A stretch of DNA of 64,000 nt from Styela clava (GCF_964204865.1 NC_135259.1:4464001-4528000), one strand, 5' to 3'. Shown: positions 12,992 through 47,665, numbered from the stretch's first letter. Numbers and translations are program-made. Notes: a model not told the origin generated them from the sequence alone.

Positions 12992-13801
12992 ATTTGAACT
13001 GTTGTATCAATTCTTCATTTCGAAAAAGGTAAATAATACTTCTAATGTATACCCAAATCATGTCCAGTATGGAGCATTATACAGAAAGTAGTCCATGAAC
13101 CGAGTTATATTACAATATTATTCATATTGAGTAAGCATGTAAAAATGGAAAAAATGCATTATTGAAAACATGTGCAAAAAGTTTCATCTTGTCAACTTTT
13201 ACTCCTATGTCAATATATTCAATTATTACTTTATTTATTCAATAATTACTGTAAAAAAATAGCAGAATAAACCAGCTTTTTAACTTGACAGATATAAAAA
13301 TAATAAACCCTACAAAATTATTAAAAAATGTATTTTAAAATGAAACATAAAAAAATGAAACAATTTAATATAACCTTGTCTAGAAATTTTAAAGTTTTGA
13401 AATAAAAAGAACAACAATTTTTATATTACTAACATTAAAAATCAGTGTTTACGGAAATTAATAAAAAGCACTGAAAGAATCTGGCACCACTGCCGATTCG
13501 TAACATCGTGCCATGTTTGTTGCGATTATAATATAAATCAATTCGATTCAATTCTACAATTGAAAGTTCGTTTCCTGACTGCAGGACTGTTTTAGCTAGA
13601 AACTCTCGAATTCTAGAGTAAATTTATTTCGAATGATTTCACTATTTATTTAGCAATAACTTATCCATTCCGTACAGCAAAGTTCTATGATTTCAAGGAT
13701 ATCGCCTATATTGAAAGACATTGATTATAACAGTAGGAGCAAACCCCTCATTTACGAGACAGTCTGTAGAGACAGTCAATTAAATATTTACTGGGGCATT
13801 C

Positions 13802-23900: not shown

Positions 23901-26900
23901 TATTTGAAAGCTCGCGAAAAATAGGATTTTTTGTACTCTAATTTGACCGCACGGTAGCAATTACGTGTGCGGTAGTCCCATTTTGCCCCACACCCAGAGA
24001 ATGTTGTTTACCCCACGCTTTTGTCAAGCACCTATTCGACAGCATTTTGTCATAGAATCCGTAGATACAATCTAAATGGGCTGATGCATCTCCTGTACAT
24101 TAAACTGAAATCATAAGCTTTGCATTATCTCTACATATCACTTTTTTCTAAATTTTGACCCCCTTTGTGTTGCTTTGACACAATTACGTAATTCTTGTTG
24201 TGACGTCAGCCGGCATTGTTTAATAATGTGTACGTTACCGGACCTGCGGAAACCCTAATATGTGATAAGTACCGACCGCACTTTTGTTGCCTTGTTCACA
24301 ATAATGTATCATGACTCGATGTCCACCGGGACCCGATCTTTGCTTTGAAATTGTTTTGCCTTGTGCGTACGTATTCATTTCGTAAAAAGTTTGTACTACT
24401 AGACGATCCTACATGATCAGTACATACCAATATTCAACTCAATATCTAAAAAGCTTTCGATGTCACATTTATGACCCTTGAATTCCGCCGAGGCGATATG
24501 CGTTAGATGCTCGGCTAATCCAAAACCACACAAAAATCGAACTTAATCCATGCGTGCTAAACACCGTCTATCTTCTTGTATTGTTTATACTGCTTGGCAG
24601 TAAATCATTAGTATATACAAAATGTAATTTAATGGCGCAAAGGGACCTAATAGCAGAGAAAATTAGGTTTCCGACTTTTAATTTAGTGGTACCTAAGAAT
24701 GCGTTAATGAAGTTGCGATAAGAAAATATATAATATATTTATTTTTTCCATCATATTCTCATTTTTTCAACCAACATTTACAAAACACATAATAGGATTA
24801 GTCTGTTATACCAATCTGCTTTTTGTTCAATTTACCAATGTATACAGCTATTCTTAATTGACTGAAATATGCGTACAGTGATATAGCAATAGAAGCAATT
24901 CGTTGAAAGCTTTAAATTGGTGATTTGTTTAGTTATGAATCGTTTACGGACGACAAAGCGCACCAATCTGAATCCCAATGTTAACAACTATGACCACAGT
25001 GTTCTCTGGTGATTCAATCTTACCGGCAAGAATTATGGCGGTCGCTAATTTTTTGTAGCTCTATCAAGGTATTTGTGCGCTTCCCTGGCTTTCTAATCAA
25101 TCTAATCTGCAAGATACACTGCACTGATAATTAAAAATTTGATGATAATGTAAATTCAACGTTTAGGCACTTATTAACGTTACGCAGTAAGAAATGATAT
25201 TTAATAATCGTCGATTATTACTCCAAGCCAATATCGATTAAGTAGAACAACAAAGTCGTAATGTTTTACACCGCACACCATTGTTTCCCAATATCTTGTC
25301 ATATATGTGGGGTAGTTTATTACAACCTGGCCATACACTAATGAACTTTCAAACCGCCTTTTTTCTGTATCTCAGGCTTGGTTAAATGCTAAATTAAAAT
25401 CTGAACGAAACAGAATGATATAGTAGGGTTTTATGTACACGGCTTTTAGTGATATGATTAACGTCTTTACTTATTATATTACAAAACCAATTATCAATCA
25501 TGTCAAGGGGCTGACGTGCTATACAGATCCCTTTCGCGGTGTAAGAGTCTCTGGGAAGGCGACTAAATATTGTGCCGTGGCGGACGGAGACGCCCGAGCG
25601 GTAATTTATGTTTGATGGAATAACTAAGCTAACATTCTGATCCACGCAATCCCGATTTGCTTTTCAATACAGTAGACAATGAGACGATTTTATTTGCTTT
25701 ACGCAAATATGGATATGTCCAATTTTTTAAGAAATAAAATTTTCCATCATATATCAAAAGTTATTATTTTATTACTAAGTTGTTTTCGCAATCTTGTTCA
25801 CAGAATCGAATAACCTCGTATGTTATAGTAAGCTTCGGCCGTTGGCCTTGATGACGTCAAAGCCAAATAAAAGCTTAGTATAGTAAGTGTTACCCGTTAG
25901 GAAATAAAACTGAAAATATGGAGGTAATTTTATACACCTATCTTATAGGATTTTCAACAATATCATTCAAATAAAAATGTAAAATTGAATAGTACATTGT
26001 CTCTATATAACTGCTGATCAAATTTATATTTCCTACGTGGTAACCAATATTGCCACTTTATAGCCCATAAACTTTACGATATCACAGCGCTAAAGAAAAC
26101 ATAGTTTAGCGGCAACGTGTAGTCTAGCCGGTTTAATAACCTATCTTAAAAATGAATTTTTGAGGCGGAATTTTTAAGGAAGAAAACTTGTCTCTGCTGG
26201 AGAAGTTTTTTTGTACAAATCGGGCGATCCTAACACTCATGTGTCCCAAATCAGGAAGGTTTTCTTTCTGAGAAAGTTCAGTTCTCGGACATGGTGGTTC
26301 AAATTCCATGCGCACTTCACAACTTGAGAATTCTACTGTAGGAAATTGCTTTAACCTTTTTATCAGAATTCAAAAGTATTGTTTTCCATCGTTATCATGA
26401 ATTGGTTGGAGTGCAATTACGATCTATATAAGATATGTGAACGTACTGATAGTACATTGCAGTCTTAATGGGTTTCGTGCACTATTTCAACCGGTATGCA
26501 TTACCATAACTTGGCACCAATTCCCACCTGACTAGGAAAGTACTAAGTCTGTGGTATCACATTTCCTGACGAACTACAAGTCAGGTATTGTAAAGCCGAA
26601 ACTATTCGAGGCATCGAAATTCAGTAGCGCAGTGGTAGTGCATCAGGTCTGGTATTTTCCCCATTCGTCTTTGTTGATAGCTTTTTACTTTTGAACTTAT
26701 TGTTTCACGATTAAGACAGTTCCCCAAACACGTAAAGCAATCAAGATATACTAAAATTGACTGTGTAACAAGTTTATACTTTATACATACTAAATATGGC
26801 TGCATCGCGTTATGCGATGCTATGCTATCCTTTGCGGATTATCTCTATTTTGTGTTTTTCTTCATAAATCGTGGGAGCCTTCGGGATCTACCACATTTTG

Positions 26901-29900
26901 CCATTGTTTTCATGACAACAACCCGTCTGTCGATATTTGGCCTTCTTGGTTTAGGACCTAAATATTGAGGTTATGCATCTGGACTATATTTCCATCAAGT
27001 AATCTTGTATATTTTTACCAGATGCTCAAGGTATGGGTTCATATATAGCCAAGCTTGCACTGCATTGGTTTTTTTAATTCAATAAGCCGGTTCGGTAATT
27101 TCTATTTGCTTACACGACGGATGAGACGACCTTGCTATTGCTCTTTACTACATTGACTTATAGCTTTGAAGATTTACAATGTGACACCCTGTGTTTCACG
27201 TTTCTTAAGTGGACTTTGTTCTTATCCTGTTTGTTGTGGCTGTTCACTGGGGTACACTGTGTTACCATAATATTTTTCTCATTAGATTTTCGACCTTTTT
27301 AGTAAAGCGGTATTTAGGTTTCTGGTCCATAACGCTTAATTTGTTACGTAGTTGGATTTTTGATTGGGTTTGCATATTTTGCGAAAGGAAGTATGGTTAT
27401 AAGATTCTTTTTTCATGCCCATCGCTGGGGGAGGGGGGGTCTTAAAAATACTTAATTCCTCAAGGCTTACGTGGATAATTCATTAACATTTTTAATTTTT
27501 TGAGATATACACTAAGCGAGATGGTATTTCCATTATGTTGTAAATCTAATGATTCAAATCGAAGTATGACGTTGAATACATGCTTTACGTCACAAATCGT
27601 TATACGCGCCCGCTTTATTTACCGAATGCCAGCTATTATGTCATTTTTGAGGCATAGGAGAATAGCAAGGCAAAGAAGGCCTTTCCAAAGTCAGAACATT
27701 GAAAATGATTGGCATATTTATAACACGAATGATCTATTAATTTCTGTAACTTCTTTCGCAATTTTAAATCTACGTAAAGACGTAAAGAAATACTCATTCC
27801 CTTTCGCATTGAAAAGTAGCGTTGTAGCGATATTTCATCTTTCGAGTAAATTTGATTATTATTTTGATCAAACCACTATTTAGTTTCCGTTGGACTGGTA
27901 ATCGTCTACCAAACAATCCTTTGTAGCCATCGCCAACAATAATATTTTTAAGTTTTTAAATCGTGTGCGCAAATGAGGGACTCATTGGTTAACGAACAAA
28001 AGGACTAGATTTACCTTCCGGATTAAATTAACCAGTCATCTCCCACGGGCTTTAGTTTTCGTAAACCATTGAAAAATATAGTCTTGTTTGAAATCTTTTG
28101 TCGGGCTTATGAGTCGGTCCGGCGATTAAAAATATGATAAAATTGAATAATTTTTAATGTTATTGGCCCTTTTTATAAATGTAGTATTCAGCTTACTTAT
28201 ACAAGTTTGTTTTCGGTTGTATTAACCGCACGTTTCACATTGGTTATACATTATTTTTAAATATGATCTGTGGTAATACTTTTATTTTCCTCTTGGGCGA
28301 ACATCATTATTACCGGCAGTTGCTCATCTAATCACCTCTTTTGCTTTTTCTTGAGGCAAAATCGTCTTCCAATCCGATGACTGACATGAAAGTCGATGCC
28401 CGTAATGATATAATTCTCCAATGTCGGTGTCAATTTTTCATTACGAGTTCTCAAAAGCCATTTTCTGTACTGTTTGTCTGAAATATGGCACGGATCGCTT
28501 TTAAATCCGATTTGTTTAAAAAAATTTACGCAATATTAACTCAATAGTGGTAATGATTATGTGTCACTACAAATAATTTTATATAATTGTTATTTTTTCG
28601 TAGGCTTTGTGACGTCATCACCAGTTGACGAAGACCTTACGACGACGGCGGCGTCTGATTACGAAGAATTGTAAGTGCCTTTTTTTGAAAGTCCATCATG
28701 AAATCCGGACTCTTGTAGTAGGAATACGACTAATAGACATTTTGTCGACTGTGTACGAATAGACACAACCTCTGAGTACGTTACTCCTGTCCGATCATTT
28801 TAGTCACACCAGTATTGTTTTACTTTTCAAGTGCTTGTCATCGATTAGATATCCTAAGTTGCCCTGTATTTTGATACCAGCAGTTTTATTACCGTGTCAT
28901 TAAAAACAGTCATGTAAACACTTATTATTACCGTGTGGATTCATTTTGAGTTCATGGTACTATTATACTGTTATGATCCTTTTGTCATATATATAAACCA
29001 GACCGTCGGTAGTTGCATTTTGAGTACAATTGTTTGCTAATCAGTTGGCTTTACCCCCAATCACCCACCCCGTCGCACCTAATGATGTTACTATGACAAC
29101 GAATTAATAATTATTCCCTTTGTTTTTATTTCAGAGACGACGACAACTTCGAAGGTAAACTTCGTCTTTATATTTTAAATTCATGCATGAGCGTTTACTG
29201 ACATTAACGAATAATTCGCTCATTTTTGGTGGGATTTGTAATAAGGAGCTTAAAATACCCCTTGATGCTATTATACTTATCATATTGTCAAGTTAGTCAA
29301 ATGATCTTACGGTTTCCTTTTGTAACGAAAGGTGTTTAACATTTCCATAGTTTTCGATAGCGCTTTAAGAGCTTTATGTATAGAGTGGGTGGTAAAGGAA
29401 ACCTTAATGACAAGTAACTGCTTGAAATTTAGTTTCTGTTTTCTATAACGAGCGCTCACGCTTGTCACTGGCTCGCCAAACTTCTGCCAGGGGATATTAC
29501 GGAATGTTTATCTGCTCAAAAATGTTACCAATGTACTACGTTTGGTAAAGTACTTTGCAAACCCGCTATCAATTTTCTACGACAGTAGTAATTTAAACAG
29601 CTGCGTTTCGCTCTGATTGAAATTTGAAACGACGTAAAATTGTTTAGACTTTCGTTGATGTTATTTGTATTATGTCGCAGTGCCACTGGTTTACATTACG
29701 AATTAAAAACTTAATCATTAATAATACTTAGAAGTATACTATGGAGCTATATTATGATGGAACATAAATAGCCGGACAACAATTCAAAATTCCTAGTCGT
29801 TTTTAAGAATCATAAACATGGTAGATTCGTTTTGCTATGTATCAAACTTCATACGATTTTTCGTCAAGAATGAAAGTCTTACAACCCTATTGCTTTTCTT

Positions 29901-32900
29901 TTGGTGGAAATCAAGTTGCACACAAACACGATACATTTCGCGTCGGCTAAGATGTTATTGTCAGTAGACGCCGCAAACGGCACACCCTTGCCGAACTGCA
30001 GCCAAACTTACAGCACTTGATGTTGGGATGGTATCATACCCACTACACCAGAGAGCACATTGAAATCTCTCTCACCGGTAATAGTTATTTAGGGTTATTG
30101 GCAACGATAGTTTCGTTATGATTGCTAAAGTGCTTTTCGTCATTTGTCAAAGGCTGTCATAATTTTGTAACCAAACCCACCGGCCATGAATCACATTTCT
30201 CCAAAACCGCAAAGAGCTAATTTTCGTAATTAGTGTGGTGCAGTTAGGGATAGAACATTGCGCGTTTTTTTTGGCCACATATTTGCATTTTTCAAATTTT
30301 CTATATGTATTTGCAAAAGAATGTTTTAAGATACTATTACATCATGAAAATGGTATTATGCCGTACTCGAAGATTACAGTTTGGCTCGGTATCCAAAGCC
30401 GTAATCCTTCGAGGCAACTGTCAAATGACAACAAACAAACTCATCTTCCAACCATGTATTGCTCATCCGGCATAGCTGAGGATTTTAATATTACCTAAAT
30501 GCCTATGGATTATGCGGTTTGATTTGGTGTGATCTGACATTCTTAGAATGCAAAATATCTGGTCGTGTTGAATTATAGAGAATCTCGTTAGGTTTGATTT
30601 GGTGTGATCTGACATTCTTAGAATGCAAAATATCTGGTCGTGTTGAATTATAGAGAATCTCGTTATCATGGTCCTTCAGTAAGTCCCTGTTGCTACAATG
30701 AAAGGAAGTAATGTTTCTGTCGAATTTGTCTCATCATGACAAAGCAAACTTATGCGCTATTTCAGATTTTGCTTTGTTGTGTGGAAGATCACTTTATATA
30801 CCTCATTCTAATTGCAGTTTACACATTGTGCAGCGAAATTCTCCACAAATTAGCTCTCCCCACCACTTCAGCGCATGTATATATAATAATTGCCGCTTGC
30901 GAGTGCGGGAAACGGTGACGGTACTGAGTAATAATTACGGGTCAGAGCCCGTGTTTAACTGACATTGGCTTGGAATTTCACTTGACAAAATTGCGTTCCT
31001 AAGGTTCTTGACGGTCTAATTTTGGCGCGTTGGGTCACGTTTTCGAATTATCTTAACTATTTTACAAATATGCTCTTTGTCGGGGTTGTTGTCCTCTTTG
31101 TTTACATCAATTGTAAATTATTACGAAATCTATCTATTTGAAAGAGGCAAATTTCTGTTCCACAAATTGATTAACGTGAATTCTTTTATGTGGTCGATGG
31201 ATAAAGCCTACATTCCTGTCGCTTTTTTATCGGCGATAAATTTTTGATATTCATATAATATCCTATCGGAAATACACATGGCACAGCGTTCTATATTTAT
31301 ATACAGTATTCGATCCCGATCTGTTACCCACTTCGAGATATTGACACATTTTTGGCGGGTTTTGTGTCACGTTATCATAATATTTAATCAAAATTTAGTG
31401 GTGTCACTAGATATTTTAATGTCACTAGATCCTTATCGTACAAGTAAAGGGGATGAATGTGCCCAATTATGGACTGCTCGTAATTCCTTCGCTCGCAAAG
31501 TAGTCGCCATCAAATCTCATAATTTTTAGTCGATTCACTGGACTTTCTAAACTCTCTTTATATCAAGTAATCACACGAAATCGTGCTAGTTTTTCACAAG
31601 AACACTTATCGAATATGATTCTATCTCCTGTTTTTGTATGATCAAGTTAAATTTGATTTTTGGGGTTCCGGAATTTCTATTTTTCGGTATCTGTTTTCTG
31701 GTTTGTTAGCATCGAAAATTCCCAACTTTTCGTTCTAGGATTAGCAAAACCGCCACCATTCCGACGCCATCGCTGGCTCACCGTACCTTTAAATTATTCA
31801 AGAAATGAACTGTGTGGCATTGGCAGAGGCATCCAATGTCAACATTCAAGTAGCATTCGATGGTTGCCAGATAAACATAGTTTAAATTTTTAATCTACTG
31901 TTTATTGATAAGACGCTCAGTTTAGCGTGGAAGAAATATTTTTAAAGTATTATTATTTAGATAAGGAATAACGTTTGGTCGAGTATATGCCGTACATGGA
32001 ACGAACTATACATCACTGGCCCATCTATGGGAATATATATTTTAAAAAATAATATAAAATGAGTTGTTTTAGTTTTAAAGTTTGTCTCACTTCGCAATTC
32101 TATGCACCTAATGCAATTTTCATTACTTAGTATATGTAAAGTAAATAAAGAGTTTTCAGTGAGGGTGGACTGGGGGCCTCCATCCTATACTAGGAGATTT
32201 TTGATACATCATATTTTGTTGTTATTGGTGTGTTTAGTGCTCAAATTCTCTTAATTTTTAGCACAAAATGAAGACTAGTTTTGGTTATTGAAAAATCGAA
32301 AAAAGGATTTTTTTCTAAGATTCCATATTTCAATGCTGTTTTAATTTCAGACTGTAAAATTTCTACAAAAATGTTTCTATACTCAAGGGTGTTGAGGAGT
32401 TTTGTGTTTTCTTTGAAACACATTTTAGTTATTACATTTTTGAAAGAATATGCCATATTGTCCGTGGTCAGTAAAAAAGCCAATACTCCGACCCGTCAAA
32501 GCACCGTTAAATCCTATTAACACGCTTGGATTCGTTTTGACAATATTTAAATTAAATTTGAAATCTGTTGCCATGTGCCTGATTTAGTCGCGCGGCCGAC
32601 ATCGTCGTCAGTACTGAATTATGCAAACAAATATGTTGTATTTATATGGTACATGCTTTATAGGTGAAAACCATATAAGTCGTATATTCCATAAATCTAC
32701 AAGCTTGCTAATATATTATTTTTGTCTGGGTGAAACGTTTTTATTTAGGTGTCTATTTTGGTATTTTCCGTTTTTCGAACTACAATGAAAGAATTAAAAA
32801 ACTAGGAATTATTTTTGGGAAGTTTTCAAATTCAGTCGTATAAATTTTCAAGTGCGAAATTGAAATTCGATCTTGTTAGGGTATTGAATTTCGTTCCTAC

Positions 32901-35900
32901 ACAAATTTCGCACACCGTAATTTCAACATAATCTAATCTAAGGCGAAAATGCATCGTTATGCGAATTGCAAGCATTTGTCTCTTTGTCAAATCAGCATAC
33001 AGAATATTTCTTATTCTCATGCAACCTAAGTATATAGAACAATTGGCGTTGCCGCAAAGCGAAACGTCTTATACGCTTCAAATCCACCCAGCGTCTACCC
33101 TTACTCGATTTGACCCCGGGTTAAGGGTGAAGAAAAACTACAATAGGTGGGGTCTCAAATGCGCGATGTGAACCCACTAAACCTGTAAACTCAATTTATG
33201 CTCTAAATCTTATCCTTGCTAAGTTCTTGCAAATAATCTAAGATTTGTTGATGTTGGACAAAGCCGTATGCCTGTACTCCGCTAATAGTTCATATACAAA
33301 CTCATGGCTTGACTTGACACGGCAAATGGTCTGAATTAGCACGCACTTCAGGATTATCAAATATATATTTAATTGTGGCCTACTCCGTAAAAGCACGTTG
33401 GGCTGCCAGCCTGCCACATAGACCGCGGACATATACACAAACGTACAGAAGTGTACTATGTGAAGTGTGTTTATGTTATATGTGAAGACTTATTTTTCAA
33501 TTCTGTTCAATCACTGAAACGATGAGGAATGTGCCAAAATATGTGTAAAGTTGTGGTATAAGTGCCAAACTATAGACTAAGTCGAGCTCAAATAATCGAG
33601 TCATTATTTTAGTCGAAAATTGTGACAGTTAAGCTTTATCAGAAGTGATCCTTCGTAACAAAGAGTTCGTTTAATAATACGCGAACCACTAAAAATACTT
33701 GAATTTCGGAGTCGCTTTTCAATCTCGGAACACAATCACCCGCGGGCACTTGTTACGCTGAATGCCATCGACGTTCACAATCACCCAGCGAGATTCGCAA
33801 CTCTTGATAAATATGTCATTTAAATCTTCTGCACGAAACCGTTATTAATGACCCATTCACTTGTAAAAACCTTATCAAACGTAAAAATCACTCGGCAATG
33901 ATTTTTCATGAAAAAGAAAAAAAAATTTTGTGCATGGATTCGTGGTTTGGCAGTTTTTCAAATAACTGGAACTCCGGTTTCATCGCGTACAATAGTTACC
34001 ACTTAAATTCTCTTACTTTTGCGTTCTTTTTTTTCTTGTAATAAATCAAGTCAACTTCGTTTAATTTCGTTTATATAATTATTTTTACGTCAACGTAAAC
34101 ACTTCTTGACGGCGCTCATGAAAAATTAACAAGGATTAATTAACAAAACTCGAACTCATATAGACGGTAATCAACCTCTTTTGTGGCGTGATTCATCTTC
34201 GTCGACTTTTAATGTACTTATTTGCGAATTCTGTATATATGATTCATCCAATAACAGATATCCCATGGGTGTAAAATTGATAGAGGCAATTTCTAGTAGG
34301 TCTGGCATGGTGTATAAATTAATCGAGCCCCGAATAAAGGGTTTACAATTATTCACTCATCTTTGGACCGAATTGAATTTAATCGATTTTCTTCTACAAT
34401 AGAAAACGATTTTTAAGATGTTACTAAGCCGTTTCTCTGCCATAAACGCACAGTTTTGGTCGTGATTTGTTAACTGGAAGCTAACTTATATTTACTCAGC
34501 TTTAAAATCCGTAAGGTCCGGTTCCGTTTCCCATCTGCAGGTAGCACACAGTCGATGTGTTTAAAAAGACAACAAAGCGGTCCGTTATCTCTATTGTCAT
34601 CCCTCGGTTGCCGTGATCCTACAGCCCGATAAACCCATTGTTAAATATCAGACTGAAAGGAGAACTTAGGCTTAGACCTGGGTCGATTAGTCACCGCAAA
34701 AGTCACGTTAATTTATCAATATTCTATGACATTCTGGCCTTTCAGCCCATAAGGCGGTAGCACACGTTTTTCCTCTTCATATTCACGTTCGAATAACCAG
34801 TGACTTGGTGTTCTCACACGCAGAAGCGGATGTGGATTCTTTGGAACATTTGTCATTCATTATACGTGACTTTGACAAAAGTATTGAAATTTTTAGCACT
34901 GTGTATTATTATAAATTCCAATTTTACTACTGTTGAATTTTTTCACTATAGTATTGCGCGAACTCTAATTCACGCGATAGAATTAATAGTTTGATAAAAT
35001 GTTTCAATTTAATGGAGATTTTGCCGTTGCTATATTTAATACAAGACAAATCGTATTGATGAATTACTTTTTCGGTCGAATTTAATAAATTCACGTATTT
35101 TTGACGAAACAGGTGTAAGGGACCTATTTACTTTATTTACCAATTATTAATCAAATCTGTAACTCGTTCAACTTCAGCCGTTTCTATCTGTCGTATTTAC
35201 CATACGTTGTGTAAATATAATTGAATTCAGCGTAACTATATAATTTCACTTAAATTCACTTGTTTTGGCTTATTTGTTAGATCATCTTAAATCTACTTGA
35301 ACATGCGTGCTTTAGATTTGTTCCGTTCGACTCGTTAAAAAGATATATTGGCATTCTGAAAATTGATAACTTTGCGGATTGATGTTTAACTCCCCTTTCA
35401 CTTGGGGTTAATATGTCACGCACGTCGTATCGTGTGGCATAAAGATTTAACAAACGTTGGATATTTGTCAGAAAATGTACCGTTACTAATACTTCCTTTG
35501 CAAATAGCGAGGCAGTATGATTAAGCTTTGTGTTTACCTGAAGTTTTCACATAGAATGATATTTTTAGTAGCCACTTCTTGTGTTTTTTATGTTTCCTAC
35601 ATATCAAATAATCTGCATGTGTTACTTTTATATTCAGTAATAATTAGAAGTATAATCAGGTTTAAGACAACGTTATTTGTTTATTTCAGAGTACCATGAT
35701 TTAGAATTGACTGAAGGAATGGAAGATGAATATCTACAATCTGGAGAAAAACTTCAATTTCGATGTCGAGTTAGCGTTGTACCAAAACGGGATCTCACAT
35801 TCACTTGGTAAGATATGTTTGAGGTTGTTTAAAAATCTTTAAAATTATGACAACCAACATAGTATGATTGGGAATATAATTTAGACAAAATTTGTGAGGG

Positions 35901-38900
35901 CGACGATACGATACACTCACAGTCGTGAGAAGAGGGAGTTTGTTACGCCGTCGTCATTACGTCCCACGACGTGTTTACGTCGCGGCTACTTTCCATTTCA
36001 AAAACAAAATAAGCTTCATATTTCGCTGATGACACCATCTTGGAATTGTTTTGTGTCGTGGGCTCATTGACCTTCTAACCTTTTCACAAATCGGGATATA
36101 TAATCCTCTACTAAATTTTTGTGTCTTTCTCTTTCGATTATTTGGTTATTGATGGGAAGCTCGGTGAATTTTCTACTGAGCTCGATTGTGTATTTACAGG
36201 TATAAAGATAATATGAAAATTAAAACTGGCGAAGACGAAAGACTGTCAATGAAAGAAAGAGAATGGGGATCAAGACTTCAAATCCTTGACGTTTACACAG
36301 CCGATTCCGGCGAATACAGATGTGAGGCTTCTGATGGAGAAAAGAGCGTTTTCACTACCGCAAGACTGACGGTCGCTTTCAGTAAGTTTATTTTTTTTTT
36401 ATAATGCTACTAGTTGGTTTTATTTTGCGGAAAGTGTGATTCGAATGGCGTTCATTTTTGAACAAAATTTTTCTAATTTTACCCGTTGTCTATCTCTAAT
36501 GACTCGAGACGTTTTTTATTCTGACGCTACTGGTTCTACTTTACGAAAAGTATGACTCGGAAAGATTTCATTTTTGAGCAGATTTTTCTAATTTCTGCTT
36601 TTTTGTGAAAGGTTGTCTTACTTGTCTGTTCTTAATCGTTAGGGATTTGCCGTATTTTGACGAATATTCTATGCTGTGCGTTTCGTCCAGGTTACACGCC
36701 TTGGAATAACTTTTTTTCCAACTGTAACCAACAAAAAGAATCCATTTGTCAATATGACAGTCTGTCATCCATCACTCTATAGAATCAATTATCTTAACTT
36801 CATTTCCCACCAAACCATTAGAAAAAACGCCCATTTGTTATAAAGCTTTGTTTGTACTTGTTAAAAACACTAAGGCACGAGCTCAAAAGGTATCTGGTAG
36901 TCTAAACCGACCAAGAAAATTCGATCAAAATTTTCTTCAAAATTTCATTGTTATTTTTCTGCGATGTATATTTAATCGGAGGGCGGGGAATGGGAGCGAG
37001 TATTTCTTTTGTCAAAACTCTGTTTAAAGATATCATGCCGTTTAGATTTGGCCCTTAGGTATCCATGCTTTAAAAATTAAAAAGTATCTATCTTGTCTAC
37101 ACGGCCGTGTATACGTCATCGCGTGTTTGTACTAACTCTATTGTTGTGGTCAACTGGTAAAATGGCTCTTAGTAAAATCGCATTGTGGAAGTAATAACAC
37201 GGGATTTGTGGTTAGGCCGAAGTTTCTTCAAGAGAATATACACTTTCGTGTATGTGTTGTTCATTCTACTTAACTGCGTTCATACGTTGTGATTTGTGAC
37301 CGAGTCTAACTAATCTCCTACGATAACATTAGCCTGAGAAACACGAAAATGTACGAGTCGTTTTTTTGTAGTAAAGTGTTCTCAGGTGTTTGTAAACGTC
37401 ATCCGTATGGGAGGCGTCATGTCCCTTGACCGGACTACTTGAACTTCCCATATAGGTTAAATTATCACTATTCATTTCACTAACACATGCCAGGGATACA
37501 ATCATGATAAAATTTTCTCTTATCCATTGCATCGTAGTGAAATATTTTTCATTCGTATATTTGGGTTAGATTTTGAATTACTCATTAATAACTGATTTTT
37601 TTTTACTATATTCGAATTGTATTTACCAGACAACGGCGAATCTCCCAACCCGCTCTTTTAATTTATCATCAGATGGGGTAATGTATATATTACCAGTTCA
37701 CATTAATCATGTGCTATATTAATTTCAAAAGTACGACTCCAAACAAAACTTCCCATTAATATAAATTCAGTTTGTCTCTTTCAATTTCGCGTCTCGTATT
37801 TTATCTAATATCAAAAAAAAAATAGGTAATTTTACGCGTCTTCGAGTGTAACCAAAAAAAGAATTGTAAATATATTAACCGAATTATGTTCCACCATGTT
37901 TGGTCCAAACAAAGCTTGCAATATATCACTTCTTTTTACTAGTACTTTTTTTCTTCCGCAGCCACATAACTGCATATGCAGCCTAATTAATTGACGTTGT
38001 GAATTTAAAAAATAATTCACATAAATAAGATGAAAAAAATATATAATTTTATCAGTTAATTCACTAGTTGTTAATATTTATCGACAGGACTTCTCATCCC
38101 CACGGAGAGGTAATATTATGTAGTCGTTCTCGCTTATATATTATTCATGTAGTGAACCGATAATTTATTCTCGGAATCCACAGTTCCTGCATGTCAAGAC
38201 TATTAAACCCCTTTTGGGGCGAAAAGAGGTGCTTATTTCGTGGCAAACTAAAATTTGTGGTTGAAAGTAACCTATTTAGTGGGTTTTTGATCGATATTTA
38301 TTGCATTGTTTCTCCGTCTGTTGTTGTGTTCCCTCCATTGAGTACATTAATTATACAGGAAATTTCACTGTAGTCGTTATTTTGCAATTGCCGCTAATAG
38401 AAACGTTCCAGACTTTGGTAGTTGTGGGTAGACTTTCAAATCCAAATAACAGAGTAACCGAAATATAAATAAAGACCTCATTAAATTCCTAATAACTTGA
38501 ACTGTTTGGGTATGATTGTACCACAAAGTTTCAGTAATCTAGTACGCTTTGCACAAAAGTTATGTTTTCTCTAGAATATGTTCCAAATATATCATAAAAA
38601 TATGTTGGAATATGTACGGATGTGACTGCGAAATTTGTATTCCTAAATGTCAAGCGTCATTAGCTTGAAGTACACCCCCCTCGTTAAATTCTATAAGATG
38701 CCAGATTAACTTTTGGTGACGCCAATCAAACGTCACAAAGTATTTGTCTGATGCCACGTCAGTGACAGATTTCGCTGAAAGCTTGTCGAAGTCGATTCAT
38801 TCGAATTCATCCATCGAATTTCCTATTGTATCGATCAAAAGTTTGAACTTGGCGATTGACGATAATACCTTTACTAGAATATTACTTCTACTCGTTTGTT

Positions 38901-41900
38901 GAGTATGCAATATATTTTGAAAGACAGATTTATAATACTCCAGGGACATTATACGGGCAGCACGAAACTGTTTTTTCATTTTTTTTTAATTCCCTTTTTT
39001 TTGGCGGTAATATTTTATCTTAAGCTAGTTTTGATATTGTTAGATAAAATTCATCTGAATTAATGATTTATCCAAGCATAGTAATAAAGTATTCCGAACA
39101 TAATATGAAAGATAATAAGGAACAAGCAATAATGATTGTTCTGAATAATGCCATGTTTAACTGAAAGCATGTTTCGACAGACATTGTTTTGTTAGGTTCA
39201 CGTATATCAATTAAACGATGTATGGGACTTAAACGCGGACATTTTCTAAATGATTCCTCACTACATGACTAAAATGTTACATGTAATTAATTTAGAATAT
39301 ATCAAAGTACTAACATATTCAATTATTTTTACCCTCTTAACTTCACATTATAATGATTTCATATTATTTCCCATGTATGATAAACATTTTCGGAAATATG
39401 AATATGCACTAGATCCAAGATTCTCCAAGAAGCTCTAAAATTAAAAAAATTCCGAGAGTCATAATATGACATGGGCAAACTACGGCCCGTGGGTCAAATT
39501 CGCCCGTTGGCTAATTCAATCTGGCCAGTTGGATACTGTCACAATCAAATTAAAACCAAATTTTGATGTTTCAGCTAAAGATAGCACAAGGAGTTTGTGA
39601 AGATTGCGATTGAATTTAATTTTGTCACGGGGCTTATTGTTTTCCACTTTTGCTTTTGTAACACTGTAAATATTGTACCTATAATGTAACGTTTTACGTC
39701 ACACTTACATGGCCCGCCAATCTAGGTGGGCACAATTATTTGGCTCCTGTTCCAAAAACCTTGCCCATCCCTGGACTCCTGCTAAGTAATCGATTTATCT
39801 CCCATTTCGCTTACATTCTGGTACAACTAACTGCCAGTCACCGGGTATCAGTGTTTCCACCGAAATCGTGGTTCCGCTAATTTTCACCAGTCATCATTTC
39901 GATCAAATCTAAAAGATAGTCTTATCACAGAGCTATTAAAATTCATGTGTGTTTGTGTATATCTGTCTTGACTAGCTTTATTTCAAAGCGAGGCCGCTTT
40001 ATCAAAAGAAACCGACCTTGGTTTAATTATCCGCCGCAATGTAATTTCAATTTATTTTGATATTCTTACGTTTACATTATCCATTGCTTTAGTTATAAGA
40101 ATGATTAATAAAGGTGTCTGCTGGCATAATTTTATCAACTGGTCCAAGCGTGTCTCATTACGATTATCGGTGTTTTGGAAAGATACCGTGGCGACCTCTA
40201 CATGCTCCTGACAGTAATGTCACATTGACGGACATATTTTTATTGTTTATTTTATAGATGTATACTGATATTGGCTTACGCGGTTATGCGCTTCTTGTTA
40301 TGTCAAAATTCGATTTTTTTCCCTATTTAATCCGCAACAGTATTTTTCATACTCACGGTGGATTTTACCTTGCCAACCTAACAGCAAATAGCTTGCTTGA
40401 TTTTGCATATGTCTGTACAGTTGGGCAATGAGCTAAAAAAATTTAAGAGGATAAAATAAAACTATCCATCAAAAGCCATAATTGCAAAATTTAAAGCGAT
40501 GTGATTTCTTTGTGCATTATGAACGAAATGTCCACCACAGACCGTCAGAGAGAATTGTATTATTAATCGAATTCAGTCTAAGTTTCCGCTTCAAACTCAC
40601 ATAATTTAACGCTTCTGGCAATCGCATTTTGGCGTACCAAAATAAGTGCAACTGTAGACGGTAAAAATTAGTTAGAATCGATATGCAATCTCTAATAATG
40701 ACTAGCTTTTAAGTAAAAACGGTGTATGAAAACAGTATCTGTCAAAGAACGAACTTAAATGTAGCCTGAGGCAAACGCAAGCGACCGCAGTATGATATTT
40801 CAGGATGGTCGATGTAACACGGTTGCCTCACCGATGCTTTTAAAGAGATTAAAAAGCCAAGAAAACGTGGTGGTTTGAGACACCACGGAATTTTTTATAA
40901 AGGAAATCACTATGCCACATTAGGATTGCACCATCTGTATATCTTGTTTGAAATATACATAAAGTCGCATGAAATAAAAAAAATGCGCCCAAGTACCGAC
41001 AGATTTTGCGCATAATTTAATAATCATTCAGGATAAACCTGACGTTTTGACAGCAATTTACCTACAACGTTGAAATGTGGCTGTCGGTTTGATGGCGCTC
41101 CTAAAGTATGCGTACCAAGATGGCGGACACCGGAACCGTAGTATGTGTACCAGGTTAGGGCTAGGCCATAATTCAGGTACAAATACTACGGGAGTCACTT
41201 GGCTAGTCTCCGAACTCGTAACAGAACTAAAAAAAGGAAAATTGGAATACAATTATGGCTTAACCCTAATCTGGTACACATACCACGTCCCGGTGTCCGC
41301 CATCTTGGTACGCATACTTCAGGGAGTACCAATTTAAAAATACCATTCGATTCAAGTCAATATGGAGCATATTCTAGGTGGCCATTTGGTATTCTGTAGA
41401 TATTCGCCTTTGCAAGGTAAATCAAAGGTTCAGACGTTCAGGTTTATTACACACTCTGAAATTTTGACCTTATCGCGGCTTTGCGTTGGAGCGTTTTCGT
41501 AATCCTAGTATCATCCAGTCAAGGCAAACTTCGGCGCCAAAATTGCACGGGGCCCGGAGAAATCGTAATCCCCACTTTATACTTTAGTCTCTTTCGAACT
41601 GCTTTACGAGCAAGATAATTGCGATTAACCCTAATTCTTCAGTTCAAAGTTCAGAATAGACTACCATGTATGATTAAATGTGATCCGTGGTACTTGTTCT
41701 GTATGCGAGACTGTTATTTGCAACACAGATAGCGCTGAAATATGAAAACAAAATATTATAAGATAGTTAGGGACGAAAAGGTTAATGGCTCAATTTTTCG
41801 CCTCCTTAAACACTAATTGACGGTTATGTTTCTGGTCATGTTGTGGCCAAAACAGAAAAAATATCATCTTTAAAGAAAACCTAACAAAATGTACTTGTCA

Positions 41901-44900
41901 GTCGTTGAGATGACACGCGAGTACAATGTTGTGGTAATACATATTATCGGAACTCGTTCACTTTACAATAATTTACAGTTATGTGGGCTGTTTTATGGGC
42001 CATTTTTACACAGTCCCCATCCTTTAGAATTACGAGTCGTCATCATAACAATTCAGCAGTATGATTGTGCCCCTTCTGATGTTTGTGACGTCATCCTTTT
42101 TAAAATCCTTTATGAAGTCTTAAATTCTACTTTTTCAGATACTCCTCCAGACAGCGGAGACACCAACATAGATTCGTAAGTATTTTTCCTTATTTTTGTA
42201 CCGTATTAATAATGAATTTACAAAAACTTATTTACAAAAAAAATATTTTGCAGTGAAATTTTTGAAGGAAAGTGCGAATTGTATGAAGGATATGCTTGCG
42301 CCCAATACCTGAAAGGCAAATACATTTATGTCGAATCGTTTCAAGATCAAAAACAAATGGAACAACAGATTACTGCTGCACTCACATTAGTTGGTACGTA
42401 ACGTTAGCCAAAGTTAATCCATTAACCATTGCGCGATGATGAATGCAAACTCGGTTTCCTACACGTTCGATCTTTTCAATCTATGCAATTGTTTACCAGG
42501 TGACAAAAACAGAGTTTCAGAAGAATGTGCAGAGTACGCAAGACCCGCTTTTTGTCATTTCGTTTTTCCACTTTGTGAAGTAATAAATGATGAAACTACC
42601 GATGAAGGTTTTGTATATGAAGACTACAGTTTCGTTGACAGCGGAACTATTCTGGAAGACGACGACAACCTTGCTAATGCCGATGGCACTGCAACCGCTG
42701 TCAGACTTTGCCGCGAAGATTGCGAACTTTTACAATTTGACGTTTGCGCGAAGGAATTTGGAACAGAGGACGAAGTTATAAAGGTATAAATCGTTTCACT
42801 CACTATATGACAATTGGACTGTAACTGGGTCGGCGCGACGTTTTGCGCGTGAAGCATTACAGTTAACTATGATGACATCGCAAATTACACACTTTGGGGT
42901 CACACCCTATGCCACGTCACCCAGGGTGCATTAAATTGGTTTGGCAATGCCGATCCGAAAACTTTATAGCCCTCGCAAATAATAGTAGATCCTGGCATGA
43001 TGTTTGATATCAGTTGCGACTTGAAAGTATATCATTTTATTTACAAACATTCAGAACCCTTAGTCCGTAACAGCCTGTGCAACGAATCGAAGAATAAGTT
43101 TTACCGTTAACTTTTTGCCAATGTTCTCAATAAAATTACCGTACCTGTTATTCGTGTTATAGCAACTTGTCAAGACTGCTGATTGCAGCCGGCTTCCGCG
43201 AACAACTTCCACTGGCGCCAAGTGTTCTCGTTTGGGATTGAAAAGCGTGGTGGACAGGACACATGTATGCTACAACGATACGGGAACAGGATATCAAGGA
43301 GTGGTAGCTACATCACAGTCGGGAGAAAAATGCAAACCATGGCCTCCGAAAATGCTAGTCGAGGTTTGTTGGAATTTTATATCTGGCTTGACAACGTTCG
43401 ATTACATCGATTCAAGGTTAATTCTTCTGTTCAATCTTCACAGTATCCGGAACTGGCGGGAGGTCACAATTTTTGCCGTAACCCTGGTAACGCGATGGAC
43501 CAGCCTTGGTGTTATACTGATAGAGATCGAATTAGCAGAGACCCTTGCGAAATCCCCAAATGCAGTAAGTACTCTGTACCTTACAAATTTATTTTTCTAG
43601 AATTTAATTTAGAAAGAGCCCTTGCTAAATCCTCAAATACAGTAAGTACTTTGTAACTCCCAAATTTATTTTTCTAGAATTTAATTTAGAAAAATATGTA
43701 ACGAATAGATTTAAACGCATATTCAATTTCTGTCGATAGTTATGTTCCACCATGACACTGGTTTATTATTGTGTTATAGAATCATCTCTTGGCGGCGGTT
43801 CTTCAGATTTGTTGATGATTCTCATTCCTTGTGTCAGCATTCCCTTATTAATCGGATGTATTATGGTCGTGATGTGCTTCGTATGTAAAAAAGGAAAAGG
43901 GAAGGACATAAAGCACACCCCTGGTAAAAAGGTTGAACTGAAAACAATACCTTCGCAAAGAAATCGTGTTCCTGAGCTATCATCGACTATGGTTCATTTT
44001 GCTGTTGAGCTTGGCGAGGGAAAATACGGAAAAGTCTACAAAGCACAGATCATGAGTAATATGGTGTATGCGCCTCAAGAACCGGTAAGCTGAAGAATTA
44101 CAATTTTGCAATTGTTAGATGGTGTACAAACCATAACTTTTCAGCACGTTGCCTTATAATGTACGTTTGCAAACTATGGTAAAAACTTTGTTTGACTTTC
44201 CCCCTTTCAATCTATTTATTATGTTATTCAGGTAGCAGTGAAGACTCTCGCTGGAGGAGCTATGCAATCACAGATCAGCGATTTTCAACGTGAAATGGAG
44301 ATGTTTTCAGACCTACAGCATGTCAATGTATCCTGTTTGAAGGTCTGTTCGATATTTTGTAAATCAATTTGTTATAATTTATATGAAAAGCATTTGTCAT
44401 GATTGATATTATTAATCTAATCCTTTTTATTTATGTGCATACAGGCCGTGGTTTCTCAGCCGACAATGCGATGTATGATCTTTGAGTACACGAGTAGAGT
44501 AGATCTTCATGAACTTCTAACATTGCATTCTCCGCATTCTGATATTGGAGGGAAAATGTCAGGCAGTGCAAGCAGTCACACATCTAGTAGCTTAGAATCA
44601 GGAGATTTCTTACATATGGCTGTACAGGTAAGACAAGATAGACAAATACCAAGTAGTTTACTTTTATCCTAGGGCGAATAAAATACATATCAAACTGAGT
44701 TGATAAATGAGGAGTGGTTAGACCAGGTGTAGGTGACGGTTTTTCAACCAGAGTCCTAAATTTTTCCCACCTAGACTGACGGCCCGTAGAAGTGTGACGT
44801 AAAAAGTTACATTTTATAAACAATATTTACAGTGTCACAAAGGCAAAAGTGCGAAACATTAAAGCTTCGTGCCAAAACTAAATTTAATCGCAATCTCAGC

Positions 44901-47665
44901 AACTCCTTAGTTTATTTTTTTAGCTGAAACATCAAAATTTCGATTTAGTTTGCTTGTGGCAGCATTAAGCGGGCCATATTGACCAACCCAACGGGACTGA
45001 TTTGGCCCGCGGGCCGTAGTTTATTCATGTCAGGGTTGGACCGTTAGGGCATTGTCCGGTTTTCACAACGTTATATTCTGATCGATTATTAATTGGTCAC
45101 GGACTCGTGTAGGTCGTTATTAGCCATATATCTAGGTAGACTGTCCTATCGGCTTTCCTATCTATCGCGGAGAATATGAAAAAAAATACTCTCCTATTCC
45201 AAATGTTTACTCTTATCTAGCGGAATAAGTATGACGCAATCATATTTTTTATTGCCTAACTATAAAAAAATCAACCAAACATTTTTCTGCAGGTCGGTGC
45301 TGGTCTGGAATACCTTGCTTCAAATAACTTCGTTCACCGTGATTTAGCTGCTCGCAATATTCTTGTTTGCAATAATAATGTAATGAAGATATCTAACCTT
45401 GGTGTCGTCAGAGATTGTTATTTATCGAGTTATTATAGATCACCACAAGGTGGACATATGTTACCTGTCAGGTAAGATTTACAAGGATATATATTTCGAA
45501 GATTAAGAAGGTTTATTTTGTTAATTTAATCAATAATTATTAATTGTGAATAACAATGCTTTCCGCATTACAAAATTTGAAATAAAGACACCACTAGAAA
45601 CATCACTAATAGAGAGTATTACGATGGCATAGCGGAACTTGCTATAAAATGGAATGCGAAGTTATCCTCTCTTCCATTGAAATTCCCTTCATTTTAAATT
45701 TATTCCTTTATCACAACAGATGGATGGCACCAGAGAGCTTAAACCAAAACATGTTTTCTGAAAAGAGCGTAGTTTGGTCATTCGGCGTTATGATGTGGGA
45801 AATGTTTGCTTATGGAATGCAACCTTATTGTGGATATAGTAATCATGAGGTATGAAAACTTCATTATATAGAATGATAATAATTCCTAATTTTTTGGTCT
45901 GAAGTTGATTATAATTTGAGCTCACACACCGAAAAAATAAGGAAGTACTTTACCATTATTTTAGACATTCACCTGCTGGCTCGGGAAAGAGTTGTATTCA
46001 ATTAACTTTCATTTTTAAAGTATGATTCTCGTTTGTGAAGGTCATCTCAAAGTAAAAACTAACGTAATATCTCATTTTCAGGTTATAGACATGATATCAA
46101 AGGGACAAACTTTATCATGTCCTGAAAATTGCTCGTCACGTGTCTATTCACTCATGCGTGAATGTTGGGAAATCGATCCAGCTCAGAGGCCTACATGCAA
46201 AGTGAGTATATTTTTGTTATATTTTTATTTTCGGATTTAAAAATTGCGCTTTTTGAGTAATCAATTATGAACCATACATTTTTTCTCTAGGACGTTCATG
46301 CTAAATTGTCGGGCTGGGAAGGCGCAAGCACCACAAGAATGACGTCACAATTAGCACAAGGAATTCACAGGCAACTGACGAACGTGATGCGTGAAGGAGC
46401 CCCATTTGGGCAATACACCCCTCCCCAAGGAACTGTGTAAGTAGCAATGTATGACCCCACCCGAAAATTTGCCGTGTGTCTTGTCCGGAGCATGTTTTTG
46501 AATTGAAATAAAAACTTCATAAACTCACGCATTTTCTCCTTTCATTTGCAGCATTGATGGCTTCAATCAACCATACATGTCGCCCCCTCAGCCTTGCCCA
46601 CCCCATGCTAGCCCCGCCTCTCAGCCTTATTATACCTCGCCTTCTACCAACTCCTCTTCTGGTATGATGCCAGGCCAGCCTCCATCTTATCCTAGTTACA
46701 TGCAACAACCGCATGCATACGCTCCGGTGCAAATGTACCCCCAACCTCAGATGCATTATAGCAGACCCCATCCCGCATCATATCCATACAAATCGAGTCA
46801 CACACACAGCAGTAGCAGAAGTACGGACAGCTGTGGGTCATCCACAAGAAATCAGCTCCACGGACACCGACACCAGGGTGGGGTCACACAATCCGCCCCA
46901 CAGCAGTTCCAGAATCCACAAAATCACTACCAACCTCAAATTCCCGGAACAGCTGAGCAACCAGAATACGAAAATTTTCACCGAACACCCGATAGCGGGA
47001 TTCACAGCTCGAAAGGCACCGACGGAACGCAACAAAACCACGGGGAAAATTACGGATCCGGTCACGGTTCGATGACGTCTGCTTCTCCACCGCCCGCGCC
47101 TACCAGGCAGCGCCCCGGAAGTGAGGTCATTGCCCCTGGTGCACAAGAAGGACTGAGACAACCCTTGTCTGTATATAACAATTCTCAACACAGCAATTCA
47201 GCAAGTAACGTGAGCACCAAACCAGTTGTGGCTCCAAAACCGCCAATTTCACCAATGGATCCTAATCGCCCTAGAACTAACATCGTCATGGGAGTGAACG
47301 GCCAACGTAATCGAAACCATAATAACCACATCGATGGGCCAAAAACTGAAACCCAACAACAAGGGGGAACGCCAAATAGACTCCAGGCCAACCGAACTTC
47401 AACTTCTGGTAATATATTAGAACTACCGGCAGAAAACGAAAAACAAAAAAACTCGGCAAGCGGTAAAGCCATGTCTTGTGACTCTGGGCTTCCCAATGAC
47501 GAACCAGACGTTGTGGACAGTACAGAAACACAACCTTTCATTCCTCAGCAGTCAAATGCGAGAGTAAGTTACAAAGCAAATAAAGCGGTGATAACAATCC
47601 CAGGATCTTCGTCGTCATCTATGTCAGGATCTACAGCTGTGACGACAGAGTCGAGGTTAACTTGA
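20957..47665 (+). CDS. ROR: ROR-family receptor tyrosine (pseudo)kinase, about 1179 aa, 18 coding exons
   Basis: Exons 20957-21038 (signal peptide), 28604-28670, 29135-29154, 35690-35807, 36200-36381 (Ig), 42139-42175, 42254-42393, 42500-42783 (Frizzled CRD), 43163-43363, 43444-43564 (kringle, NFCRNPG..PWC), 43780-44084 (TM, GEGKYG), 44232-44342 (VAVK), 44445-44627 (SPHSDIG), 45293-45471 ([14 protein letters not shown]), 45720-45849, 46082-46201, 46291-46436, 46552-47665. All GT-AG and phase-consistent; total 3540 nt. Ig-CRD-kringle-TM-TK order is diagnostic of ROR. Confidence 0.95.
22329..22373. repeat. 20-bp tandem duplication
   Basis: TACAACGAATGAAATTTTCT x2 plus a partial third copy. Confidence 0.9.
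30516..30665. repeat. Perfect 75-bp tandem duplication in a ROR intron
   Basis: GGTTTGATTTGGTGTGATC...GAATCTCGTTA at 30516-30590 and again at 30591-30665. Confidence 0.95.
39466..39773 (+). mobile_element. hAT MITE family A, copy 2
   Basis: GACATGGGCAAACTACGGCCCG ... TTGCCCATCCCTG; colinear with 5608-5926. Confidence 0.85.
41094..41330. mobile_element. Palindromic MITE, Merlin-like family B
   Basis: About 90-bp inverted arms (AAGTATGCGTACCAAGATGGCGGACACCGG / CCGGTGTCCGCCATCTTGGTACGCATACTT) with GG...CC ends. Shares its right half with the copies at 59341 and 63075. Confidence 0.85.
43538..43693 (+). repeat. About 77-bp tandem duplication spanning the kringle exon end and its splice donor
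   Basis: CCCTTGCGAAATCCCCAAATGCA|GTAAGTACT...TTTAGAAA is repeated as CCCTTGCTAAATCCTCAAATACA|GTAAGTACT...TTTAGAAA. Confidence 0.9.
44724..45033 (-). mobile_element. hAT MITE family A, copy 3
   Basis: Reverse complement of family A; TSD GGTTAGAC/GGTTGGAC. Confidence 0.85.

What the first reader, a model, noticed from the sequence alone, without database searches (positions are those of the whole stretch)
46991..47020. beta-catenin-identical DSGIHS phosphodegron with S/S/T four-residue spacing in the ROR tail
Seen: [10 protein letters not shown]. Established: beta-catenin DSGIHSGATT is phosphorylated by GSK3 at S33/S37/T41 and bound by beta-TrCP (DSGxxS). Here Ser, Ser+4 and Thr+8 match; the +12 priming serine is absent (Thr at +11). 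A second DSG (CDSGLP) lies near 47479. Inference: a Wnt co-receptor whose turnover is wired to GSK3/beta-TrCP, or which competes with beta-catenin for them, linking non-canonical and canonical Wnt signalling. I do not recall this motif in vertebrate RORs.
Basis: partly seen in the sequence, partly recalled or inferred. Interest (0 to 1): 0.7.

Follow-up and report, generated by a model that had tools for sequence, protein, structure and literature searches.

The report
Two destruction tags on tunicate ROR
The cytoplasmic tail of this sea-squirt Wnt receptor (ROR) carries two conserved short motifs that likely mark it for removal by the ubiquitin ligase beta-TrCP; the likeness of one of them to beta-catenin is likely coincidental, and the other, barely noted at first, is the one kept across tunicate RORs.

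Summary
The [10 protein letters not shown] is real, in frame and spliced into the last exon of a Styela clava ROR, probably a pseudokinase (P0001, aa 956-965). The beta-catenin story fails. This genome's beta-catenin reads DSGINS. The +8 Thr is Val or Ala in the two closest orthologues and Asn in one conspecific contig. There is no +12 Ser. DSGIHS recurs in 2 other long ORFs of the genome.

The degron core does survive: QPEYENxxRTPDSG[IV]HSxK is a conserved island (15 of 19 identical, flanks 12 of 57) in an orthologue with 53% tail identity. It is confined to 3 of 18 tunicate-type RORs.

The second DSG is the stronger finding. S-x-D-S-G-[LV]-P-x-[DE] is in 17 of 18 tunicate-type RORs across paralogue groups. 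No DSG occurs in 106 non-tunicate ROR tails.

Both sites have Ser/Thr three residues before the degron Ser, the primed-CK1 layout of YAP's degron. Likeliest reading (about 0.5): kinase-primed, CK1-completed beta-TrCP degrons that down-regulate the receptor, as in VEGFR2. Binding and phosphorylation are untested. New member of a known kind; not a beta-catenin mimic.

The parts
20957..47665 (+). ROR-family receptor gene, multi-exon (P0001/XP_039260764, 1179 aa): Ig, Fz/CRD, kringle, TM, kinase-like domain, about 400-aa tail
   Evidence: four splice joints between 45468 and 46552 seen
45395..45403 (+). NLG in place of the kinase DFG motif; Mg-binding Asp lost, so pseudokinase inferred
   Evidence: DFG in amphioxus P0014
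46552..47665 (+). last coding exon, aa 810-1179, low-complexity tail predicted disordered
46808..46843 (+). Ser/Thr-rich stretch ([12 protein letters not shown]), probably the counterpart of the vertebrate ROR Ser/Thr-rich domain 2 (inferred from position)
46958..47014 (+). conserved proximal block [19 protein letters not shown] (aa 945-963)
   Evidence: 15 of 19 identical to P0268 versus 8 of 35 and 4 of 22 in the flanks
46967..46975 (+). Y-E-N, candidate Grb2-type SH2 site (pYxN consensus recalled)
   Evidence: kept in P0001, P0002, P0268
46985..46990 (+). T954-P955, candidate proline-directed priming site three residues before S957
   Evidence: kept in 3 of 3 carriers; CK1 consensus pS/T-X-X-(X)-S/T (PMC4032983)
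46991..47008 (+). proximal DSGIHS, canonical-form beta-TrCP degron candidate (S957, S961)
   Evidence: 3 of 18 tunicate-type RORs
47018..47020 (+). T965 (+8), the supposed T41 equivalent; not conserved
   Evidence: V in P0002, A in P0268, Asn codon in run X6
47465..47503 (+). distal motif [13 protein letters not shown] (aa 1114-1126); consensus [KR]xxSxDSG[LV]Px[DE]; candidate primed beta-TrCP degron with a fixed acidic second position
   Evidence: 17 of 18 tunicate-type RORs; 6 of the 8 invariant tail columns past aa 795 in the 12-sequence alignment; also in the paralogue at G000:C13:17228563

Best explanation
This ascidian ROR, likely a pseudokinase, carries two conserved DSG motifs in its predicted disordered tail that likely act as kinase-primed, CK1-completed beta-TrCP phosphodegrons and would trigger ubiquitination and down-regulation of the receptor. 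Shown: both motifs, their distribution, and a Ser/Thr three residues before each degron Ser. Inferred for the distal, pan-tunicate site: a basophilic kinase phosphorylates S1117 (K/R at -3 in 14 of 17), CK1 then phosphorylates S1120, and the invariant Asp/Glu (D1125) replaces the second phosphoserine of a DSGxxxS-type degron. One degron phosphate would then suffice. Inferred for the proximal site, limited to one Styela-containing clade: a proline-directed kinase phosphorylates T954, CK1 then S957 and S961 (pS-x-x-x-S also fits CK1). It sits beside a YEN adaptor site, so it would add a second, signal-coupled off-switch. GSK3 could act on S957 if S961 is primed, but a beta-catenin-style S45-T41-S37-S33 relay is not there.
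For: Distal: DSG[LV]P in 17 of 18, with Ser at -2 and D/E at +6 in 17 of 17. It supplies 6 of the 8 invariant tail columns past aa 795. Proximal: a conserved island over about 0.7 changes per column. The I-to-V change keeps the hydrophobic position of DSG-Psi-x-S (PMC10487276). Only 55 of 398 tail windows keep the same four positions in all three carriers (14%). Beta-TrCP accepts DSG followed by S, T, E or D; listed degrons include DLG1 KDSGLPS and p105 VCDSGVETS (PMC10317156). YAP S381 primes CK1 at S384 in the same -3 layout (PMC11545309, PMC4032983). Precedent: CK1-delta and beta-TrCP destroy VEGFR2 via several tail DSG motifs (PMC3405505). Vertebrate ROR2 binds CK1-epsilon and is phosphorylated by CK1 and GSK3. 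A beta-TrCP gene is in this genome.
Against: No binding, phosphorylation or turnover data. The proximal motif is absent from 15 of 18, and P0318 has RHPDPRVHL at the matching place. A Lys 9-16 residues upstream, part of the KX8-15DSG consensus, occurs in 3 of 17 distal sites and 1 of 3 proximal sites. The distal site has no second Ser/Thr, and its near-invariant Cys (15 of 17) and invariant Pro are not explained by beta-TrCP. In mammalian cells CK1-epsilon binding stabilises Ror2 rather than destroying it (PMC5928365). The tail has about ten other conserved blocks, so conservation alone does not name the ligand. One Ciona paralogue (P0159) lacks the distal motif.
Confidence: 0.5

Rival explanations
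1. One reading: the tail copies beta-catenin's GSK3 ladder and degron and competes with beta-catenin for GSK3 or beta-TrCP, linking the two Wnt branches.
For: The DSG[IV]HS core is conserved in 3 proteins. No Lys lies within 60 residues upstream of it in P0001 or P0002, which would suit a decoy like LMP1 DSGHES (PMC10487276). Ror-a and Ror-b are called Wnt antagonists in Ciona (PMC6457572).
Against: +8 is T/V/A/N and +12 is not Ser. The genome's beta-catenin is DSGINS with its own full ladder. The Ciona RORs lack the proximal motif. Sequestration would raise beta-catenin, the opposite of an antagonist (inference). DSGIHS recurs in other long ORFs.
Confidence: 0.07
2. Only the distal motif is a degron. 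The proximal block is kept for another reason, such as an SH2 or kinase docking site around YEN and TP, and merely resembles DSGxxS.
For: Restricted to one 3-protein clade (100/99). R, P, H and K are also kept, which beta-TrCP does not need. The base rate of such conservation is 14% of tail windows. A DSGxxS-type match arises in 1.4-4.1% of shuffles.
Against: All four degron-defining residues and the hydrophobic position are kept while the flanks diverge (12 of 57 identical).
Confidence: 0.2
3. Both DSG motifs are functional but bind something other than beta-TrCP: another phospho-reader, a caspase cleavage site (Asp followed by Ser-Gly), or a thiol-dependent site at the conserved Cys.
For: Near-invariant Cys and invariant Pro at the distal site; no consistent acceptor Lys.
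Against: Invariant Ser at -2 and D/E at +6 match the primed-degron layout. There is no Asp at caspase P4, and Asp in 11 of 17 at the TRAF6 Glu position (both consensus motifs recalled). Cys is replaced by F and R in 2 of 17.
Confidence: 0.2
4. The proximal motif is a neutral coincidence in a Ser/Gly-rich tail.
For: 10 of 12 other genomic places fetched also read DSGIHS, most in short ORFs.
Against: Conserved island, Fisher p about 1e-5, post hoc. No change in the six core codons in the 4 runs.
Confidence: 0.03

Closest known systems
VEGFR2 (KDR) tail DSG degrons, CK1-delta / SCF-beta-TrCP (PMC3405505, passages read)
   Same: RTK-family receptor with several DSG motifs in a cytoplasmic tail; CK1-type sites
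   Different: Here a probable pseudokinase Wnt receptor; one site has D/E for the second Ser; untested
YAP C-terminal phosphodegron (S381 primes CK1 at S384/S387; PMC11545309, PMC4032983, passages read)
   Same: Ser/Thr three residues before the degron Ser at both sites; basic residue at -3 of the distal priming Ser
   Different: No His at -5 (LATS consensus recalled), so the priming kinase is probably another; membrane receptor; DSGxxx[DE] or DSGxxS rather than DSGxS
beta-catenin destruction motif (S33/S37/T41/S45)
   Same: DSGIHS matches the vertebrate hexapeptide (PDB 1p22/2z6g)
   Different: No conserved +8, no +12; this species' beta-catenin is DSGINS
NF-kB1 p105 (VCDSGVETS), DLG1 (KDSGLPS), CDC25 DDGxxD degrons (PMC10317156, PMC10487276, passages read)
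   Same: DSGLP core; C-D-S-G-hydrophobic; DSGxxxS spacing; acidic substitution tolerated
   Different: The combination pSer first and fixed acidic second, with upstream priming Ser, on a receptor tail
Vertebrate ROR1/ROR2
   Same: Ig-CRD-kringle-TM-kinase-like layout; Ser/Thr- and Pro-rich tail; CK1 and GSK3 regulation reported for ROR2
   Different: 0 of 106 parsed non-tunicate tails have DSG; their tails are about 200 aa versus about 240-430 in most tunicate-type RORs

Membership tests
ROR receptor family | Ig + Frizzled CRD + kringle + TM + tyrosine-kinase-like domain | tested here: met
   Pfam; all 120 listed homologues share Fz, kringle and kinase domains and most are named ROR
ROR receptor family | Degenerate catalytic motifs (pseudokinase) | tested here: met
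   NLG for DFG; activity itself not tested
beta-TrCP phosphodegron (proximal) | DSG-hydrophobic-x-S core | tested here: met
   DSGIHS / DSGVHS
beta-TrCP phosphodegron (proximal) | Conserved in orthologues | tested here: inconclusive
   3 of 18; kept over about 0.7 changes per column, absent beyond
beta-TrCP phosphodegron (distal) | DSG-x(2-4)-[STDE] core, conserved | tested here: met
   DSGxxx[DE] in 17 of 18; broad consensus from PMC10317156
beta-TrCP phosphodegron (both) | Disordered, cytoplasmic position | tested here: met
   C-terminal to TM and kinase; pLDDT below 50 (shallow alignment)
beta-TrCP phosphodegron (both) | Acceptor Lys about 8-15 residues upstream | tested here: not met
   3 of 17 distal, 1 of 3 proximal. 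Present for the distal site of the window protein, absent for its proximal site. Lowers membership; distal lysines can serve in receptors (recalled)
beta-TrCP phosphodegron (both) | Phospho-dependent binding and ubiquitination | not testable with these tools
   needs experiment
beta-catenin-type GSK3 relay | Conserved S/T at +8 and priming Ser at +12 | tested here: not met
   T/V/A/N at +8; Gln at +12
Primed-CK1 degron (YAP type) | S/T three residues before the degron Ser | tested here: met
   3 of 3 proximal (Thr), 17 of 17 distal (Ser); phosphorylation untested

The most novel reading that the evidence does not exclude
Tunicate RORs evolved a lineage-wide, half-charged beta-TrCP degron (pSer plus fixed Asp/Glu), and one Styela-containing clade added a second, MAPK/CDK-primed degron fused to an SH2 site. 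This would make ROR a beta-TrCP substrate whose removal is timed by its own signalling. It would also point to the conserved vertebrate STG[HY]V[TS] stretch (97 of 106 tails) as a possible cryptic equivalent.
Probability: 0.3. Interest if true: 0.55.

Novelty: new member of a known kind. Interest (0 to 1): 0.32.

Why it matters
How ROR receptors are turned over is only partly known. The passages read report lysosomal loss of Ror2 without CK1-epsilon and name no ligase for it; a search listing names RNF43 as an interactor. A pan-tunicate degron gives a concrete, mutable site that can be tested in Ciona embryos, where Ror-a marks the anterior palp territory, and suggests where to look in vertebrate ROR1/2.

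Tried and rejected
Beta-catenin identity as a signature: rejected (own gene DSGINS; motif recurs elsewhere).

S/S/T ladder: rejected (common in this tail, not conserved).

Tankyrase-binding motif for RTPDSG: Arg and Gly are spaced correctly, but Asp-Ser at positions 4-5 misfits the recalled consensus. TRAF6 PxExx[DE] for the distal site: Asp in 11 of 17. Glycosaminoglycan Ser-Gly site: wrong side of the membrane. LATS site: no His at -5. All four rest on recalled consensus motifs.

Laying four other runs at 80% likeness gave no divergent contig over the motif; one contig covered it without differences. No listed holder was on record as RNA; expression rests on the splice joints.

The last homologue search added one tail only (P0318). 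The trees do not resolve the orthology of the window gene to Ciona/Phallusia/Clavelina with strong support; I assign it from shared tail blocks. No complex prediction was run: no full-length beta-TrCP was at hand, and a textbook pair without phosphates would say little. The TAZ degron paper was not held. Earlier scan findings: none.

Full report
THE GENE. The window holds a multi-exon ROR gene at 20957-47665 (+). The tail ORF retrieved its own protein, P0001 = XP_039260764, Styela clava ROR1-like, 1179 aa, which maps exactly onto the window. Pfam gives Ig, Fz, kringle and tyrosine-kinase domains. The DFG motif reads NLG, and nearly all tunicate-type kinase domains examined have Asn there, whereas amphioxus has DFG; a pseudokinase is inferred. 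Contigs from 3 of 4 runs laid (three studies) show four GT..AG joints and run through the last exon. AlphaFold gives pLDDT below 50 for aa 771-1179, on a 12-sequence alignment. A paralogue lies about 12.7 Mb away on the same contig (P0005).

THE OBSERVATION. 46991-47020 reads [10 protein letters not shown], aa 956-965, with Thr at +11 and Gln at +12 as stated. In 100,000 shuffles of the 409-aa tail, DSGxxS arose in 1.4%, DSG.{2,3}[ST] in 4.1%, DSG-hydrophobic-x-[ST] in 0.39% and exact DSGIHS in 0.003%. The four-residue ladder is unremarkable: 25% of 55 serines have S/T at +4 and the tail has 7 such ladders. A loose genome pattern gave 84 matches, a lower bound. I kept the 13 with Ser-compatible codons and fetched the 12 outside the window. 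10 of 12 read DSGIHS, and 2 of those lie in ORFs over 270 aa that look like disordered coding exons. None was beta-catenin. The genome's beta-catenin, identified by PDB matches, reads DSGINSGATTANPS: it has the full 0/+4/+8/+12 ladder but not the His.

CONSERVATION OF THE PROXIMAL MOTIF. I examined 18 tunicate-type RORs that have a tail: 9 named (Styela, Ciona, Phallusia, Clavelina) and 9 unnamed. The unnamed ones are assigned by similarity; the five full-length ones also fall in the 100/99 clade of 14 rows. I left out cluster members at least 90% identical to these and the tailless P0157. DSG[IV]HS is in 3 of 18: P0001, P0002 (88% tail identity) and P0268 (53%). These three form a clade (100/99), with about 0.7 changes per column between P0001 and P0268. 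The block QPEYENxxRTPDSG[IV]HSxK is 15 of 19 identical against 8 of 35 and 4 of 22 in the flanks (Fisher p about 1e-5, post hoc). Only 55 of 398 tail windows keep the same four positions in all three. The +8 residue is T, V and A in the three. One of four conspecific runs has an Asn codon there (47019 C>A, contig depth 19.5), and none differs in the six core codons. Against generality: P0318 reads RHPDPRVHL at the matching place, and the Ciona, Phallusia and Clavelina proteins lack the motif. The tail also has about ten other conserved blocks.

THE DISTAL MOTIF. S-x-D-S-G-[LV]-P-x-[DE] (aa 1114-1126; 47465-47503) is in 17 of 18, across paralogue groups; the exception is the Ciona paralogue P0159. 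Ser at -2 and Asp/Glu at +6 are in 17 of 17, Lys/Arg at -5 in 14 of 17, Cys at -1 in 15 of 17. It supplies 6 of the 8 invariant tail columns past aa 795 in the 12-sequence alignment. Of 108 non-tunicate RORs, 106 tails could be parsed and none has DSG. Among 90 parsed kinase tails from the 50% representatives, many not RORs, 6 have DSG: four tunicate-type and two others in a different context.

HOW IT LIKELY WORKS. From the papers (passages read in each case): the beta-TrCP consensus is DSG-Psi-x-S, with DSG(X)3S and DSG(X)4S variants and the non-phosphorylated DDG-phi-x-D (PMC10487276). DSG followed by S, T, E or D covers most partners, and listed degrons include DLG1 KDSGLPS and p105 VCDSGVETS (PMC10317156). 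Acidic substitution is tolerated (PMC4474599). CK1 reads pS/T-X-X-(X)-S/T (PMC4032983), and YAP S381 primes S384/S387 this way (PMC11545309; table in PMC12273402). VEGFR2 is destroyed through several tail DSG motifs by CK1-delta and beta-TrCP (PMC3405505). Both ROR sites have Ser/Thr exactly three residues before the degron Ser (shown). I infer the following. At the distal site a basophilic kinase primes S1117, CK1 phosphorylates S1120, and D1125 stands in for the second phosphate. At the proximal site a proline-directed kinase primes T954, and CK1 then phosphorylates S957 and S961. Beta-TrCP, whose gene is present, would ubiquitinate the receptor for endocytosis or degradation. The neighbouring YEN may recruit a Grb2-type SH2 adaptor (consensus recalled). 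Every step after the sequence pattern is untested.

AGAINST. An acceptor Lys 9-16 residues upstream is present in 3 of 17 distal and 1 of 3 proximal sites. The distal Cys and Pro are unexplained. In mammalian cells CK1-epsilon binding protects Ror2 from lysosomal loss (PMC5928365, passages), though ROR2 is phosphorylated by CK1 and GSK3 (PMC9343661, passages). A rough update with assumed priors of 0.15-0.35 puts the proximal site at 0.38-0.77 functional; the priors are my own.

NOVELTY. Searches for ROR2 + beta-TrCP + degron (7 papers), ROR1 + TrCP + ubiquitination + receptor name (49 papers, 15 listed), ascidian + TrCP + Ror (3 papers) and tunicate Ror kinase terms (5 papers) showed no report of these motifs or of a ROR-beta-TrCP link. 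I saw those results as search listings only. Subscription papers and interactome supplements were not seen. RNF43 is listed as a ROR interactor (PMC8550759, listing only). In Ciona, Ror-a marks anterior ectoderm and Ror-a/b are called Wnt antagonists (PMC6457572, passages).

VERDICT. The degron reading is plausible (about 0.5) and the beta-catenin mimicry reading unlikely (about 0.07). Degrons of this type in receptor tails are a known kind; a ROR instance, and especially the pan-tunicate distal motif, appears undescribed. Interest 0.32.

Noticed in passing
window 9380-13006 (-): A single uninterrupted 1209-aa ORF encoding SMC3 (cohesin). It was the only close match in the genome, so it looks like an intronless sole copy; another intronless SMC-like ORF (1281 aa) lies at G000:C2:14610138.
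   Followed up: partly
window 49844-51869 (+): hAT-type transposase remnant (DUF4371 plus hAT dimerisation domain) split over two overlapping frames, about 2 kb downstream of the ROR stop codon.
   Followed up: no
P0015-P0120 (non-tunicate ROR1/ROR2 tails): STG[HY]V[TSA] is in 97 of 106 parsed tails, next to mouse ROR2 S864. It loosely fits the broad beta-TrCP consensus and could be a cryptic degron.
   Followed up: partly
L024 (G000:C1:17843057): This genome's beta-catenin degron is DSGINS, with Asn for the usual His, and a full +4/+8/+12 ladder.
   Followed up: yes
window 45389-45472 and alignment A1: Tunicate RORs share DFG>NL[GA] and a YYR[SN]PQGG activation segment; the two Ciona paralogues have near-identical kinase stretches, suggesting gene conversion.
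   Followed up: no
window 42560-42700: An acidic insertion of about 30 aa in the Frizzled CRD, present in P0001 and P0002; a shorter non-acidic insert is in the paralogue P0005 and none in the other nine.
   Followed up: no
window 47525-47542: A [DE]x3-4-P-hydrophobic pair (ETQPFI; HRPLL, SQPLL, AKPLI in others) follows the distal motif in most tunicate RORs; possibly a dileucine-like sorting signal (consensus recalled).
   Followed up: no
L016:378-1202 (-), L020:369-1217 (-): Two other long, disordered-looking ORFs of this genome with DSGIHS; further candidate beta-TrCP substrates.
   Followed up: partly
window 43575-43700: Short direct duplication inside the intron after the kringle exon, seen by eye.
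   Followed up: no
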